A DNA stretch of 56,112 nucleotides. Origin: a virus. Lineage: Duplodnaviria; Caudoviricetes. The position numbers and the translations under genes are program-made. Positions 2,491 to 5,851 of the stretch are shown piece by piece. The stretch lies in the IMG/VR virus record IMGVR_UViG_3300020603_000019, positions 1 to 56,112 of that record. One strand, given 5' to 3'. The first letter of the stretch is position 1, and the number at the start of each line of letters is the position of its first letter. The notes under the pieces were generated by a model. It worked only from the letters and a program-made list of their open reading frames with translations, did no database searches and was not told the DNA's origin.

Positions 2491-3621
2491 TCAAGCAGAC
2501 AAATAAACTGTTTCGCCAAATGGCGCTACAAGGTTTTTGCTGACGGATACCCATAGTGTTGGAGCGCATGCTGCTTCTTCAGCGGACGCAAAGTCTTCTG
2601 CGCCTGTTTCTAAATCAGTAAGATAAACAATAGCTTGTACGTCCGGGTGGTTGTCGCGCAAATATTCAAACGCTGGCGTAAACGCTGTACCGCCACGCCC
2701 TTTGAACGAAGGAAGCTGTGACGCTTTTAAGCGTTCACCCGTATCAAGAACTTTTACGTCTTGGACTTGGGCGTCTGCTTGGATCCAGACAATTGATGAC
2801 GGCTGGACCTGAGCCATGACTGCATCTACTTCAGAGATGAACTGAGCGCCCTGCTCGTCTGTAATGGATCCACTAGAATCGTTGACGACTGCAACTTTGC
2901 CACAGGTCTCTTGGTACATAGACGGAAGATATTCATCTTCTGAAATCCATGCTCGGTGAGGCTTGCGCCACGAATAGTCGTCTCGGTTAAGTTCCGTGAA
3001 AAACGGCCAGAGGACCGTGCGCCAGTCAACCTTGGGTTGGAGTATTTCCGAGATAAAGAGCTCGATGTTACCAGGGAGTTTGCCACGTGCTTTGGCTACA
3101 GCAGCAGCTTCGCCTACGGCGATCTGCCAGTTGGACTCTTGTTCAGCAGCAGAGCCTGCTTCAAGGCTGCCGCTTGTTGCGTCAAGCACGATACCCCAGG
3201 CGCAGGGCTTGGGGCGTTTGCTGGGCTCTTTGTTGATAAGGTTGTAAATTTCTTCCGCGCCCATACCTTTGTAGGCAGGGTCTAAAAGAGCGCCTTTTGG
3301 CAGGATAAATCCTGATTCGATCAGGTGGTCGTTGATTGCGTAATCGCAAGCAATATTCCACAGCTGGTGATCACGTTCTTGTCTACGTGTCTGATGGTTA
3401 AATACACAATGCAGAACCTCGTGAGCCAGGAGCCCACGAAGCTGCATTGGATCTAGCTTAAGAATATAAGCAGGATCGTAGTACAGATGAATACCATCTG
3501 TAGCTGCGGTCTTAATATCTTCACGTTGCACAGGGCGAAGACGAATGGCCAACGTTCCGAAGAACGGCTGGTCCATTAACAGCTGCGAACGCGCTTTGAC
3601 TAGCGCGCCTTCGGCAGACAT
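2491..3621 (-). CDS. DUF2201-type metallopeptidase plus VWA domain protein
   Basis: TAATDG, HEVLH (HExxH), WNIACDYAIN, C-terminal MIDAS DSSGS, GRGGTAF, YLTD. Confidence 0.9.
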   Translation of the reverse strand: MSAEGALVKARSQLLMDQPFFGTLAIRLRPVQREDIKTAATDGIHLYYDPAYILKLDPMQLRGLLAHEVLHCVFNHQTRRQERDHQLWNIACDYAINDHLIESGFILPKGALLDPAYKGMGAEEIYNLINKEPSKRPKPCAWGIVLDATSGSLEAGSAAEQESNWQIAVGEAAAVAKARGKLPGNIELFISEILQPKVDWRTVLWPFFTELNRDDYSWRKPHRAWISEDEYLPSMYQETCGKVAVVNDSSGSITDEQGAQFISEVDAVMAQVQPSSIVWIQADAQVQDVKVLDTGERLKASQLPSFKGRGGTAFTPAFEYLRDNHPDVQAIVYLTDLETGAEDFASAEEAACAPTLWVSVSKNLVAPFGETVYLSA

Positions 3622-3622
3622 A

Positions 3623-4300
3623 TCAACCTCCTACGAGTTTTGCTGTGAGTACTACTTCGTTGACAAATGCGTCGTCGAACTGAACTTCTTCCTTGATTTG
3701 TTGTGCGCGCGCAACACGGGTGATGCGCTCGTACATGCGAGTCTTGGCTTCGTGAGGAACGAAAGACTCACCAGCAGGCCAGGCAAGTAGCAGCTGCTTT
3801 ACTGTCGAACATTGCTTGAGCAAGCTTCGAATCTTGGTGGAGTAGTCTGCTCTTTCGATGCTGTGCTGATGCTTGTCGAGTGCTGCTTGTTTGCAGCCAT
3901 TTAACAGTTGAGACTGAACTTGTGGCCCAAGTTCGTCAAAGTTGAACTCGGGCATGCTCCAGCTGTTTGTCCTATAAATAGGAAAAGCTGGAACAAACTC
4001 GAATACGAGTTGTTCGGTGGTATTTGAGTGGAATCCTGTTTTGCTGCTGAGACACAAACGGGCGCAGTCTTCCCTATTGATTCCTTTTGTTGGTCCGCCA
4101 AACGAATTAAAAGAGTACCTGTGTTGTCGATCAAATTGATCTTTTAACGCTTTGTACGGTTCCGAAGATAATACAGCATCTCTAACAAGATTAGTAAGCT
4201 CTGTAGTTGGCTTAGGTTCGGGCCGCGCCGAATTAAAAGCTTCCATAGCTTTGTTATAAATTGTGTCACGTAAGTCATTGGTCATTCTTACTGAAGCCAT
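3623..4300 (-). CDS. Nmad5-like (nucleotide-modification-associated domain 5) protein
   Basis: N-terminal RMTNDLRDTI and C-terminal LLKQCSTVKQLLLAWP resemble Nmad5-family phage proteins (recalled pattern). Confidence 0.55.
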   Translation of the reverse strand: MASVRMTNDLRDTIYNKAMEAFNSARPEPKPTTELTNLVRDAVLSSEPYKALKDQFDRQHRYSFNSFGGPTKGINREDCARLCLSSKTGFHSNTTEQLVFEFVPAFPIYRTNSWSMPEFNFDELGPQVQSQLLNGCKQAALDKHQHSIERADYSTKIRSLLKQCSTVKQLLLAWPAGESFVPHEAKTRMYERITRVARAQQIKEEVQFDDAFVNEVVLTAKLVGG

Positions 4301-4311
4301 AGGGTTCTCCG

Positions 4312-5310
4312 TTAGATAACAACGTCTACGTTAGCAGACGTCCATGATTTAAACGCCGGGTGATTCAGGAGCTGACGCTCTTTTGCGACGCAGTCGCGAA
4401 TCAATACAACTTGGAACTCACGAGGCATGCGTCGGTTGTAACGCATGATGGCGTCGAAGTTACCTTGATCGACCCTCGATGCCAGTGCGCCAGCAATGGC
4501 GTAAAGCGTCGAAGGATCTCCGGGTACGCGTGTGGTTGATGGGTTCTGCATGAGATCGTCGATGTCCGGCAGATCCTTGCGGATTGCACGATGTGCGAGG
4601 TACTCGCCTGCAGGGCCGTCGCCGATCAAAGACGAAACGCCGTAGAACATGTCTTCCATGAACGGCAGTTTGCGGTTGACCATCTCCCAGGTACGGGGCG
4701 ACGGAAACGCGTAGTCCGCGTTATCCATGCTGTGCAGGAGACCAGGGCGGTAACGCAAGAACGACACGATGCTGTCGTCAATGTTGCGTTGTAAAGCCCA
4801 GGCTACCCAGTCGTCGATGTTCGGCTCGAGAGTGTAGTGCGCAAACCGGTTCTTGACCGGGGTTGGCATTTCGTGGATCGCGGCTCGATCCTGGGCTCGG
4901 TTGCCAGCTGCTACGATGATGGTGTTTTCCGGAAGGACGTACGTGCCAATCTTGCGATCAAGAGTTAATTGCAGCAGTGCGTTCTGTGTGGCTTTTGGAG
5001 CATTGGGCAACTCGTCAATAAGCAGCACTACCGTGCCGGTGTAGTTGGTTTCCGGATAATCCTCGGGCACACCGTATCTTGTGCGGTATGAACCGTCGGC
5101 TTGCTCAACTACCTTGAGGCCGCCGCGAACGTCGACAGGGTCAAACAGGTTGGCACGAAGCTCAAAGACTTTGGCTAAAAGATCTTCAGCAAACTGATAA
5201 ACAATTTGCGATTTACCCAGACCTGGAGGACCCCAGATCATGGTTGGCACGCGAGCAAGCGCGTTGGCACGGAGTTCTGACTTGAGTTGAGAGGGACGAA
5301 TAGTACGCAT
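4312..5310 (-). CDS. MoxR-like AAA+ ATPase
   Basis: Walker A GPPGLGKS, Walker B LLIDE, sensor AAGN, NRF arginine finger, PSPRTWE. Paired with a VWA protein. Confidence 0.92.
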   Translation of the reverse strand: MRTIRPSQLKSELRANALARVPTMIWGPPGLGKSQIVYQFAEDLLAKVFELRANLFDPVDVRGGLKVVEQADGSYRTRYGVPEDYPETNYTGTVVLLIDELPNAPKATQNALLQLTLDRKIGTYVLPENTIIVAAGNRAQDRAAIHEMPTPVKNRFAHYTLEPNIDDWVAWALQRNIDDSIVSFLRYRPGLLHSMDNADYAFPSPRTWEMVNRKLPFMEDMFYGVSSLIGDGPAGEYLAHRAIRKDLPDIDDLMQNPSTTRVPGDPSTLYAIAGALASRVDQGNFDAIMRYNRRMPREFQVVLIRDCVAKERQLLNHPAFKSWTSANVDVVI

Positions 5311-5329
5311 TAGTTGGTCCTTTGTTGTG

Positions 5330-5548
5330 AATTAGGGTGCTTCCCCTGTGCGGCGGTAACTTTGCATCCGCTTCACGGCCACAGGAGACTGTCGTGTTGC
5401 CAACGCCCGGTTGGTTAGCCGGTAAGCATTACTGCCTAGGCATCATTGGCTATCCGTATTGCTACGGGTAAGCTGTTGCCGAACCACCCGCGCCTATCAT
5501 GGCGCTTCTCATCGTCCGGGTCAGACTAGCTGCTGATTAGGCGGCACG
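5330..5548 (-). ncRNA. Putative structured RNA / leader upstream of the AAA ATPase
   Basis: ORF-free, GC-rich gap with nested helices UGCCG/CGGCA, ACCCG/CGGGU, GCGCC/GGCGC, CCGUA-GCAA-UACGG, GCCAAUG/CGUUGGC, GCA-GUAA-UGC, UCUCCUGUG/CACAGGGGA. Confidence 0.6.
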
Positions 5549-5851
5549 TTATTTCTTGATGTCGATTACTTCGACCCAAGCAAATTTGCGGTACGGGAAA
5601 CTGCGTGTGCGAACCCAACGTAGTTCCTCGTGTTTGACGTGTCGTTTTGCAATGAACAGGAATATTGAGATGAAGGCACCGGCCCAAAGGCCTGCCATCA
5701 TGCCAGCGAAAGTGCCGGCGAATATCCAGATGAAAAAGAACGTCAGGCAGATGTCAAGAAAAATGTCGTGTTTAGCGATGCGTTTAAGGTTGAGCTTTAG
5801 TAATAGAAATATTATTGCGATGGCGGCTAGTGCGCCTTCTAATATGCCCAT
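5549..5851 (-). CDS. Hypothetical membrane protein (2-3 TM)
   Basis: Three hydrophobic segments and a basic C-terminus. Confidence 0.75.
   Translation of the reverse strand: MGILEGALAAIAIIFLLLKLNLKRIAKHDIFLDICLTFFFIWIFAGTFAGMMAGLWAGAFISIFLFIAKRHVKHEELRWVRTRSFPYRKFAWVEVIDIKK

What the first reader, a model, noticed from the sequence alone, without database searches (positions are those of the whole stretch)
5330..5548. About 220-nt multi-branched RNA with GNRA tetraloops
Seen on the minus strand, four consecutive domains. (1) UGCCG...CGGCA enclosing UCAG/CUGA, ACCCG/CGGGU and GCGCC/GGCGC; loop AGCU can pair with a downstream AGCU. (2) CCGUA-GCAA-UACGG. (3) GCCAAUG...CGUUGGC enclosing GCA-GUAA-UGC and CCGG/CCGG. 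(4) UCUCCUGUG...CACAGGGGA enclosing GCGG/CCGC. GNRA loops and G.U pairs favour this strand. It is the largest gene-free gap in this compact operon. Inference: an unrecognised riboswitch, ribozyme or sRNA; several GGA motifs also allow a CsrA link.
Basis: partly seen in the sequence, partly recalled or inferred. Interest (0 to 1): 0.72.

Follow-up and report, generated by a model that had tools for sequence, protein, structure and literature searches.

The report
Widespread new phage structured RNA
This 215-base stretch is one copy of an intricately folded RNA, absent from the RNA-family catalogue, that many uncultured phages carry, usually wedged between their tRNA genes; its job is still unknown.

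Summary
A single-sequence fold is not above chance (z -1.24). Comparison settles it. A covariance model built from 44 copies in other viral contigs hits the window at 96.4 bits, E 7e-28, full length. It also hits 124 other loci, giving 94 distinct sequences.

On the hand-made seed alignment 98.1% of pair cells are standard pairs, 28 of 53 pairs change on both sides, and 0 of 500 shuffles reach this.

Three are contradicted. One of the seven is really a pseudoknot.

Rfam 15 has no match. Cultured phages gave none by blastn. A motif scan of 185,579 species' genomes found one contig, and it looks like phage.

In 83 of 94 loci the RNA lies among same-strand tRNA genes. In 46 it starts within 2 nt of a tRNA 3' end. 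The window phage has no tRNA; here the RNA sits between two ORFs.

Best reading: a processed, stable, trans-acting RNA. A 5'-cleaving ribozyme is the main rival. Riboswitch and CsrA links are unsupported.

The parts
5337..5551 (-). Whole RNA, 215 nt: one copy of the phage RNA family
   Evidence: cmsearch with model R1: 96.4 bits, E 7.4e-28, model positions 1-200 of 200
5546..5551 (-). Conserved single-stranded 5' segment UAACGU. Its first three bases are the stop codon of the upstream ORF
   Evidence: A, C, G, U at seed columns 3-6 are invariant in the 44-sequence seed. ORF 5549-5851
5529..5545 (-). H1 hairpin GCCGC / GCAGC with loop CUAAUCA. The window copy has one C.A mismatch
   Evidence: 5 of 5 pairs change on both sides in the family. 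Window sequence
5514..5526 (-). H2 hairpin GUCUG / CGGAC with 3-nt loop ACC (5519-5521)
   Evidence: The central pair covaries: GC 55, CG 20, AU 4
5506..5513 (-). Conserved purine-rich joining strand GAUGAGAA
   Evidence: Nearly invariant, but partly fixed by the retrieval patterns
5490..5505 (-). H3 hairpin GCGCC / GGCGC with loop AUGAUA
   Evidence: 5 of 5 pairs change on both sides on A2
5482..5489 (-). Joining strand GGGUGGUU. 5486-5488 pair with the H2 loop 5519-5521 (pseudoknot 1). 5483-5485 pair with ACC 5413-5415 in the H4 loop (pseudoknot 2)
   Evidence: PK1 has two independent double changes: ACG/CGU in L011, L051 and L062, and AUC/GAU in L210 and L211. PK2 has one variant lineage: GUUC with GAAU or GGAC
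5423..5481 (-). Variable insertion with two GNRA-capped hairpins: 5454-5467 (loop GCAA) and 5424-5437 (loop GUAA)
   Evidence: Shared only with L002, L014 and L016. Other members have 0-3 different hairpins at this site
5407..5422 (-). H4 hairpin CCGG / CCGG with loop CUAACCAA
   Evidence: All copies except the L011-type lineage, plus L068 and L043 where the loop could not be read, have ACC in this loop. H4 shows 6 of 6 pairs changed on both sides on A2, although the window's own H4 was placed in an insert by the model
5393..5405 (-). H5 hairpin CGU / ACG with loop UGGCAAC
   Evidence: The closing pair covaries: CG 57, UA 18, AU 2
5342..5388 (-). 3' domain. H6a is 5380-5388 with 5342-5350. H6b is 5366-5371 with 5353-5357. 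The terminal loop 5358-5365 stands where most members carry hairpin H7
   Evidence: H6a shows 6 of 6 pairs changed on both sides. H7 is absent or cut off in 11 of 79 distinct copies, the window among them
5337..5341 (-). 3' tail AGCAC (family consensus RARGCA + N)
5549..5851 (-). Upstream ORF, 100 aa, hydrophobic, no Pfam family. It ends inside the first 3 nt of the RNA
4312..5310 (-). Downstream MoxR-like AAA+ ATPase gene. It starts 26 nt after the RNA

Best explanation
Window 5337-5551 (-) is one copy of a widespread family of phage RNAs, about 200 nt long, that Rfam does not hold.

The fold has six core helices (H1-H5, and a long 3' helix H6a/H6b). It has two pseudoknots, in which one strand, GGGUGGU, pairs with the ACC loops of H2 and H4. 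Optional parts sit at fixed sites: extra GNRA hairpins, a hairpin H7 with a k-turn-like loop, and a 3' extension. This much is shown.

The rest is inferred. The RNA is transcribed as part of a polycistronic phage transcript. In most phages that transcript is a tRNA array; in the window it is the replication-gene operon. The RNA is then cut out as a discrete, stable molecule, by the host's tRNA-processing enzymes where tRNAs flank it. It acts in trans during infection through its compact pseudoknotted core, most plausibly on the host's tRNA or translation machinery or on a host defence aimed at that machinery. It does not regulate the neighbouring gene. Its molecular target is unknown.
For: Family and fold:
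- The model R1 hit on the window is full length, 96.4 bits, E 7e-28.
- 124 further loci match.
- On seed A1, 98.1% of cells are paired, 28 of 53 pairs change on both sides, 0 of 500 shuffles reach this, and slid controls give 0-9 such pairs.
- On A2, 97.2% are paired and 38 of 47 pairs change on both sides.
- Pseudoknot 1 has two independent double changes.

It is RNA on this strand:
- 385 GU+UG cells against 37 AC+CA.
- 83 of 94 loci have same-strand tRNA genes and 0 have opposite-strand ones.

It is not coding:
- Sense frames are open in 0, 0 and 1 of 94 copies, and lengths fall in all three classes mod 3.

It is a discrete unit:
- A tRNA 3' end lies within -1..+2 nt of the RNA start in 46 of 94 copies. 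A tRNA starts <=5 nt after the end in 16 of 94.
- In loci without an abutting upstream tRNA, the RNA starts within 7 nt of the upstream stop codon, or overlaps it, in 8 of 14 loci looked at.

It is independent of its neighbours:
- Among relatives whose ATPase is 86-99% identical, the RNA is upstream of the ATPase (L002, L014, L016), 2.1 kb away (L011-13, L051), or absent (L003, L045 and others).
- No flanking protein family is found in more than 24 of 122 loci.
- Some copies are followed by an intrinsic terminator, read by eye in L062 and L011.

It is phage-specific:
- The motif scan found 1 contig among the genomes of 185,579 species, and that contig has the same tRNA-array context.

There is precedent:
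- GOLLD and ROOL are phage RNAs 'often near tRNA islands' (PMC12286853, passages read).
- T4 rnaC and rnaD are small stable RNAs that abut tRNA-Arg (annotation).
Against: - There are no expression or end-mapping data.
- Processing, stability and trans action are all inferred from gene order.
- Tight spacing may only reflect phage genome compaction.
- The target is unknown.
- The window copy has a C.A mismatch in H1 and lacks H7.
- Pseudoknot 2 rests on one variant lineage. Two scans for further variants returned 21 pattern hits and no family member.
- Most copies were fetched with patterns that fix parts of H2, the following joining strand and GGGUGG. The invariance of those columns is therefore partly ascertainment.
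- A2 and A3 are fitted to the model.
- The sequences are related, so the shuffle controls overstate significance.
Confidence: 0.6

Rival explanations
1. It is a new, large self-cleaving ribozyme that cuts at its own 5' edge. It would free the 3' end of whatever lies upstream, either a tRNA ending in CCA or an mRNA just past its stop codon. HDV-like 'theta' ribozymes next to phage tRNAs are proposed to act this way.
For: - The conserved 5' segment begins within -1..+2 nt of a tRNA 3' end in 46 of 94 copies, exactly abutting in 30.
- It begins 0-7 nt after, or overlapping, a stop codon in 8 of 14 loci looked at.
- The 3' spacing is looser: <=5 nt in 16 of 94 copies and 31-300 nt in 35.
- A double-pseudoknot core with invariant purine-rich joining strands is typical of ribozymes (established knowledge).
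- Theta ribozymes are defined as tRNA-associated when a tRNA 3' end lies within 5 nt of the cleavage site (PMC10879173, passages read).
Against: - No Rfam ribozyme family matches, even at E<=10.
- I found no pairing partner for the first six nucleotides, which an HDV-type P1 helix would need (my reading of the alignment).
- 200 nt is far larger than most self-cleaving classes.
- Tight spacing is also what compact tRNA arrays show between ordinary tRNAs.
Confidence: 0.2
2. It is a cis-acting processing or stability element of the polycistronic transcript. It could be a nuclease entry site, or a block to 3'-5' exonucleases that protects the upstream tRNA or mRNA. It would have no function once released.
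For: - It always lies between units of one transcript, on the same strand.
- Relatives of the window phage carry a different long hairpin, element A, in the same intergenic slot. This suggests the slot hosts processing structures.
- No promoter-like site, and no terminator-like site on the minus strand, flanks the window copy.
Against: - A simple hairpin does this job. Six conserved helices, two pseudoknots and about 60 near-invariant unpaired positions are far more than needed.
- The same fold is kept from 15-56 kb contigs to 524 kb records.
- L014 and L016 carry element A and this RNA in tandem, so the two are not alternatives.
Confidence: 0.1
3. It is a riboswitch or other leader that controls the downstream gene. 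In the window that gene is the MoxR-like ATPase.
For: - In the window, L014, L084 and L151 an ORF starts 19-28 nt after the RNA.
- Size and pseudoknots are compatible with a large aptamer.
Against: - 83 of 94 copies lie in tRNA arrays.
- Downstream genes differ, and no family recurs in more than 24 of 122 loci.
- No terminator or Shine-Dalgarno-sequestering stem is visible. The Shine-Dalgarno site of the ATPase gene (5318-5323) lies outside the fold.
- Close relatives with the same ATPase lack the RNA.
Confidence: 0.05
4. It is not an RNA. It is a small protein-coding gene, a DNA-level signal, or chance complementarity.
For: - The single-sequence fold energy is not significant: z -1.24 and -0.89.
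- A 44-aa ORF lies on the plus strand at 5337-5471.
Against: - No frame is conserved.
- Compensatory changes keep the pairs.
- G.U pairs exceed A.C by 385 to 37, which only makes sense for RNA of this strand.
- Insertions fall in hairpin tips.
Confidence: 0.01

Closest known systems
GOLLD and ROOL RNAs (large 'ornate' phage and prophage RNAs)
   Same: All are encoded by phages, lie often near tRNA islands, have multiple pseudoknots, have no known protein partner and have no known function (PMC12286853, passages read). The family here lies among same-strand tRNAs in 83 of 94 copies.
   Different: No Rfam model matches, GOLLD and ROOL included. This RNA is about 200 nt, against more than 800 nt for many GOLLD members as that paper states. 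Whether it forms homo-oligomers is untested. The window copy is not near any tRNA.
Phage T4 small stable RNAs rnaC and rnaD (species 1 and 2)
   Same: They are stable RNAs of unknown function that directly follow a tRNA gene in a phage tRNA cluster. In T4, rnaD starts 1 nt after tRNA-Arg (annotation). That they are released by tRNA processing is recalled knowledge, not from a call.
   Different: They are 139 and 119 nt long. Model R1 finds nothing there with filters off: best 3.1 bits, E 0.41, a 24-nt fragment.
HDV-like 'theta' ribozymes of gut phages
   Same: Both sit with their 5' edge at the 3' end of phage tRNAs and have a double-pseudoknot topology (PMC10879173, abstract and passages read).
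   Different: Theta ribozymes are minimal HDV-like folds, which I recall as well under 100 nt. Here there is no HDV-type P1 partner for the 5' end and no Rfam HDV-type match. Self-cleavage is untested.
tRNA-binding RNAs (T-box leaders, RNase P RNA)
   Same: The invariant GGGUGGU resembles, from memory, the T-box core that pairs with the tRNA NCCA end, and the GGU of RNase P loop L15. H7 carries a k-turn-like loop, as T-box Stem I does (recalled).
   Different: No Rfam T-box or RNase P match. In this family the GGU triplets pair within the molecule, with compensatory changes. The L011-type copies lack UGGU altogether. CCA binding therefore cannot be a universal feature.

Membership tests
Any Rfam 15 family (4227 models) | Score at or above the family's gathering threshold, or at least E<=10 | tested here: not met
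   Whole window at gathering score: 0 hits. Window 5200-5700 at E<=10: 0 hits. Nine other loci: only tRNA and tmRNA. Typical copies from L107 and L081 at E<=10: 0 hits, plus one spurious snoRNA on the opposite strand.
GOLLD / ROOL | Match to the family covariance model | tested here: not met
   That Rfam holds both models is stated in the methods passage of PMC12286853.
GOLLD / ROOL | Phage-encoded and close to tRNA islands | tested here: met
   80 of 94 distinct copies have a tRNA within 300 nt. The window copy itself does not.
GOLLD / ROOL | Homo-oligomeric nanocage | not testable with these tools
   Needs cryo-EM or native gels.
HDV-like (theta) self-cleaving ribozyme | Cleavage site, at the 5' edge, within 5 nt of a tRNA 3' end | tested here: inconclusive
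   The edge is within -1..+2 nt of a tRNA 3' end in 46 of 94 copies. Whether it is a cleavage site is unknown.
HDV-like (theta) self-cleaving ribozyme | Nested double pseudoknot whose P1 helix is formed by the first nucleotides | tested here: not met
   No complement to the invariant 5' ACGU segment was found in the alignment. No Rfam HDV-type hit.
HDV-like (theta) self-cleaving ribozyme | Self-scission in vitro | not testable with these tools
   A bench assay is needed.
Riboswitch (generic) | Lies in the 5' leader of a regulated gene and has an expression platform | tested here: not met
   83 of 94 copies are in tRNA arrays. No terminator-like site on the minus strand around the window copy. 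The downstream genes are not conserved.
T4 rnaC / rnaD | Sequence and structure homology | tested here: not met
   cmsearch with filters off on the T4 tRNA region: best 3.1 bits.
CsrA-binding RNA | Repeated GGA motifs exposed in hairpin loops | tested here: not met
   The GGA triplets of the window copy lie in H2, V1 and H6b stems (one search read). No GGA loop is conserved in the family alignment.
k-turn (motif within H7) | A 3-nt bulge followed by tandem G.A / A.G pairs between two stems (consensus recalled) | tested here: inconclusive
   The sequence signature NNN-GA / GA is present in 58 of 68 distinct copies that have H7. The window copy has no H7. The geometry is untested.

The most novel reading that the evidence does not exclude
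The family is a new class of catalytic or self-assembling phage RNA. One reading is a large ribozyme that trims the 3' ends of phage tRNAs and mRNAs at its own 5' boundary. The other is an RNA-only particle, like ROOL and GOLLD but built from a 200-nt unit, with the GGU/ACC contacts formed between molecules. In either reading phages would deploy it against host tRNA-directed defences or to reshape translation.
Probability: 0.2. Interest if true: 0.95.

Novelty: categorically new. Interest (0 to 1): 0.8.

Why it matters
Large, highly structured RNA classes without a known job are rare, and they have repeatedly led to new biochemistry: riboswitches, ribozymes and the ROOL/GOLLD nanocages.

This one is compact at about 200 nt. 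It has two pseudoknots and many invariant unpaired bases. It is present in at least 124 other viral contigs, from small podovirus-like genomes to records of 345-524 kb. It is essentially absent from bacterial genomes.

Its usual home inside phage tRNA arrays ties it to an open question: what else, besides codon supply, do phage tRNA islands do? Its size makes it easy to make and probe.

It also gives annotators a model for a recurrent 'empty' gap in phage genomes.

Tried and rejected
Single-sequence folding of both strands gave nothing significant: z -1.24 and -0.89.

Rfam at gathering score and at E<=10 gave nothing on the element. ARAGORN found no tRNA or tmRNA in the window.

blastn against cultured phages (INPHARED) found no match. 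I tried the window region and three family members. A covariance-model search of that collection was not possible.

The genome contigs pattern scan returned one contig only, a MAG contig with a phage-like tRNA array.

Search for a constant protein neighbour: the largest flanking ORF cluster is in 24 of 122 loci.

Conserved small ORF: none.

Homology to T4 rnaC and rnaD: none.

More variants of pseudoknot 1. Two pattern scans gave 41 stretches, 34 of them new loci. Of these 34, only L210 and L211 are members; L185-L187 were read and are chance matches.

More variants of pseudoknot 2. Two scans gave 21 stretches and 0 members.

An HDV-like fold and a T-box or RNase P-like CCA-binding reading were considered by eye. 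I rejected them as universal features; the reasons are under Closest known systems.

Literature. Six searches found nothing describing this RNA:
- phage, tRNA array, structured RNA, noncoding RNA
- tRNA, phage, RNA motif, metagenom, adjacent to tRNA
- bacteriophage, tRNA gene cluster, novel ncRNA, covariation
- jumbo phage, tRNA, ncRNA and related terms
- tRNA islands, phage, ncRNA class, pseudoknot
- four short sequence motifs

I did not use the metagenome-contig scan, read laying, structure prediction or the protein searches.

Full report
WHAT IS AT THE COORDINATES

The window is an IMG/VR virus record of 56,112 bases, estimated 95% complete. It has a podovirus-like gene set: DNA polymerase, primase, helicase, terminase, portal and internal virion proteins. 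It has no tRNA gene.

On the minus strand a 100-aa hydrophobic ORF (5549-5851) is followed by a 238-nt gap. Then comes a MoxR-like AAA+ ATPase (4312-5310), an Nmad5-domain protein and a DUF2201 vWA-like protein. The finding fills that gap.

Folded alone, the stretch is not remarkable. The minimum free energy is -79.7 kcal/mol, z -1.24, and 27 of 200 shuffles fold as well. The plus strand gives z -0.89. Rfam 15 gives nothing at gathering score over the whole window, and nothing at E<=10 on 5200-5700. There is no promoter-like site and no minus-strand terminator-like site around it.

RELATIVES OF THE WINDOW PHAGE

The ATPase retrieved 56 loci from viral contigs. blastn with the element found it:
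- upstream of the ATPase in L002 (99.6% identical), L014 and L016
- in a diverged, shorter form about 2.1 kb further upstream in L011, L012, L013 and L051

The intergenic slot itself varies:
- 28 nt in L045
- 117-145 nt in most relatives, filled by a different long hairpin, 'element A'
- 366-410 nt in L016 and L014, which carry element A and the RNA in tandem

So the RNA is a movable unit, not a fixed leader of the ATPase gene. L014 differs from L016 mainly by an insertion of about 46 nt at the tip of the last hairpin. L016 changes G to A in the 5' hairpin and compensates with C to U.

A LARGE FAMILY

A 24-base pattern from the conserved 5' part hit 29 stretches of viral contigs, and a 3' pattern hit 10.

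I aligned 44 copies of the commonest length, about 200 nt. I drew a structure by hand and built covariance model R1.

R1 matches:
- the window at 5337-5551 (-), 96.4 bits, E 7e-28, full length
- L002, L011-L014, L016 and L051, with a weak 26.7-bit hit in L043
- all 100 sources
- 22 of the 54 sources

That is 124 loci besides the window, giving 94 distinct sequences in the two stored alignments. Six further contigs carry copies identical to these by pattern.

Carrier contigs range from a few kb to 524 kb. Of five records of 197-524 kb, four have one copy and the 524-kb record has two.

SUPPORT FOR THE FOLD

On the seed alignment A1, which was not fitted to any model:
- 98.1% of 2309 cells are standard pairs, against a shuffled mean of 85.5%.
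- 28 of 53 pairs change on both sides, against a shuffled mean of 17.0.
- 0 of 500 shuffles reach any of the five measures.
- Sliding the partner by 1-3 columns leaves 36-48% paired and 0-9 such pairs.

On A2, with 79 distinct rows fitted to the model, 97.2% are paired and 38 of 47 pairs change on both sides.

G.U and U.G cells number 385 against 37 A.C and C.A cells. All tRNA genes in the loci are on the same strand as the RNA: 83 loci with same-strand tRNAs, 0 with opposite-strand ones.

No reading frame is conserved, and lengths run from 101 to 271 nt in all classes mod 3.

Caveats:
- The sequences are related.
- The retrieval patterns fix parts of H2, the next joining strand and GGGUGG.
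- A2 and A3 lean towards the model.

ARCHITECTURE

5' GAACGU; H1 (5-6 bp); UAG; H2 (5 bp, loop ACC); GAUGAGAAG; H3 (5 bp); GGGUGGU(A/U); 0-3 variable hairpins; H4 (loop with ACC); H5 (3 bp, loop UGGCAAU); a long 3' helix H6a/H6b with internal strand GUCGKGAAG; usually a hairpin H7; then RARGCA.

The H2 loop pairs with the first GGU of the joining strand (pseudoknot 1). Two independent lineages change both sides: ACG with CGU in L011, L051 and L062, and AUC with GAU in L210 and L211.

The second GGU can pair with ACC in the H4 loop (pseudoknot 2). Only the L011-type lineage varies here, with GUUC against GAAU or GGAC. Two scans for other variants returned 21 chance matches and no member.

H7 carries a k-turn-like NNN-GA / GA loop in 58 of 68 distinct copies that have it. 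11 of 79 copies, the window included, lack H7 or are cut off before it.

In 21 of 85 loci with enough downstream sequence, a 70-128-nt extra domain follows. It is closed by a stem of at least 14 bp that starts at the RNA's last four bases. Shuffled controls gave this in 16 of 1700 trials.

Kept:
- GCGCC/GGCGC (H3)
- CCGG/CCGG (H4)
- UCUCCUGUG/CACAGGGGA (H6a)
- GCGG/CCGC (H6b)
- ACCCG/CGGGU (as pseudoknot 1)
- the two GNRA hairpins of the window-specific insertion

Contradicted:
- UGCCG/CGGCA
- UCAG/CUGA
- GCCAAUG/CGUUGGC

The strands of the three contradicted pairings belong to H1, H2 and H5, each of which covaries.

CONTEXT

Of 94 distinct copies, 80 have a tRNA within 300 nt. In 16 a tRNA starts <=5 nt after the RNA (examples). 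The flanking tRNA types vary.

I looked at 14 loci where no tRNA abuts the RNA's 5' end. In 8 of them the RNA starts at or within 7 nt after the upstream stop codon; in the window it overlaps that codon. In 4 of them an ORF begins 19-28 nt downstream. In L062, and in L011 and L051, an intrinsic terminator follows, read by eye.

No protein family recurs in the flanks: the largest cluster is in 24 of 122 loci.

IS IT KNOWN?

- Rfam: no match for the window copy or for typical copies.
- Cultured phages: no blastn match with four queries.
- Bacterial and archaeal species genomes: one contig, a MAG contig with the same tRNA-Asp-RNA arrangement and a tmRNA, so probably phage DNA.
- T4's rnaC and rnaD are similar in context but do not match the model.
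- Six literature searches found no description.

From PMC12286853 I read passages only. They say GOLLD and ROOL are phage RNAs often near tRNA islands, of unknown function, that form nanocages. From PMC10879173 I saw the abstract and passages. They describe HDV-like theta ribozymes whose cleavage site lies next to phage tRNA 3' ends.

MECHANISM

Shown: a conserved, strand-specific, non-coding, double-pseudoknotted RNA fold, carried by many unrelated phages as a self-contained unit inside same-strand transcription units.

Inferred: it is released as a stable RNA, with tRNA-processing enzymes defining its ends in arrays, and it acts in trans. I put this at about 0.6.

The main rival, at about 0.2, is a ribozyme that cuts at its own 5' edge. 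The exact abutment to tRNA 3' ends and stop codons favours it. The lack of a partner for the 5' nucleotides, and the fact that tRNA arrays are tightly packed anyway, count against it.

A passive processing or stability element (about 0.1) and a riboswitch (about 0.05) fit the complexity and the contexts poorly.

The resemblance of GGGUGGU to the tRNA-CCA-binding strands of T-box and RNase P RNAs is recalled, not tested. The intramolecular covariation, and the L011-type copies that lack it, argue against CCA binding as a general feature.

VERDICT

The element is a member of a widespread phage RNA class with no counterpart in Rfam. Its function is open.

Noticed in passing
L003:2881-2985, L004:929-1040, L015:2856-2960, L016:2635-2745, L014:2591-2700 (same intergenic slot as window 5311-5548; absent from the window): Most relatives of the window phage carry a different imperfect hairpin of about 100 nt ('element A') between the membrane ORF and the ATPase gene. 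RNAalifold predicts 20 pairs, 4 of them with double changes. It may be a nuclease processing site. L014 and L016 have it in tandem with the RNA studied here.
   Followed up: partly
e.g. L107 just downstream of 13566 (minus strand), L081:14102-14190, L173, L146: In 21 of 85 loci a 70-128-nt extra domain follows the RNA. It is closed by a long AU-rich stem of at least 14 bp that begins at the RNA's last four bases, and it is often followed by a U run. Shuffled controls gave this in 16 of 1700 trials. It could be an optional 3' domain or a separate RNA.
   Followed up: partly
L043:4359-4494: A weak 26.7-bit match to the model. H1 and the GAUGAGAAG strand are recognisable, but the second hairpin is longer and different and the 3' half is reduced. 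It may be a distant sub-type, which would mean the family is wider than the patterns could reach.
   Followed up: no
L076:5093-5467, L081:10053-10437, L184:2244-2649: Phage contigs that carry the RNA also encode permuted (two-piece) tmRNAs, with tags such as ANDDVYAMAA and ANDEQFALAA, near the tRNA arrays. This hints at proteobacterial hosts.
   Followed up: no
window 2491-5310 (-): A MoxR-like AAA+ ATPase, an Nmad5 (nucleotide-modification-associated) protein and a DUF2201 vWA-like putative metallopeptidase form a three-gene module next to the DNA polymerase gene. The ATPase has relatives at about 32-38% identity in many cultured phages.
   Followed up: partly
L017:2616-2894: One relative carries an extra 92-aa ORF in the same intergenic slot, in place of the RNA. 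This again shows that the slot accepts different cassettes.
   Followed up: no
L184 (MAG contig NZ_JBBAKG010000090.1, 23 kb): This was the only hit among the genomes of 185,579 species. The contig is binned to a Haliscomenobacter MAG. It has the typical phage tRNA-array and tmRNA context, so it is probably phage DNA in the bin.
   Followed up: partly
Record behind L113 (524,565 bases): Two copies of the RNA, 201.5 and 238.7 bits, lie about 305 kb apart on opposite strands. The four other large records searched have one copy each.
   Followed up: no
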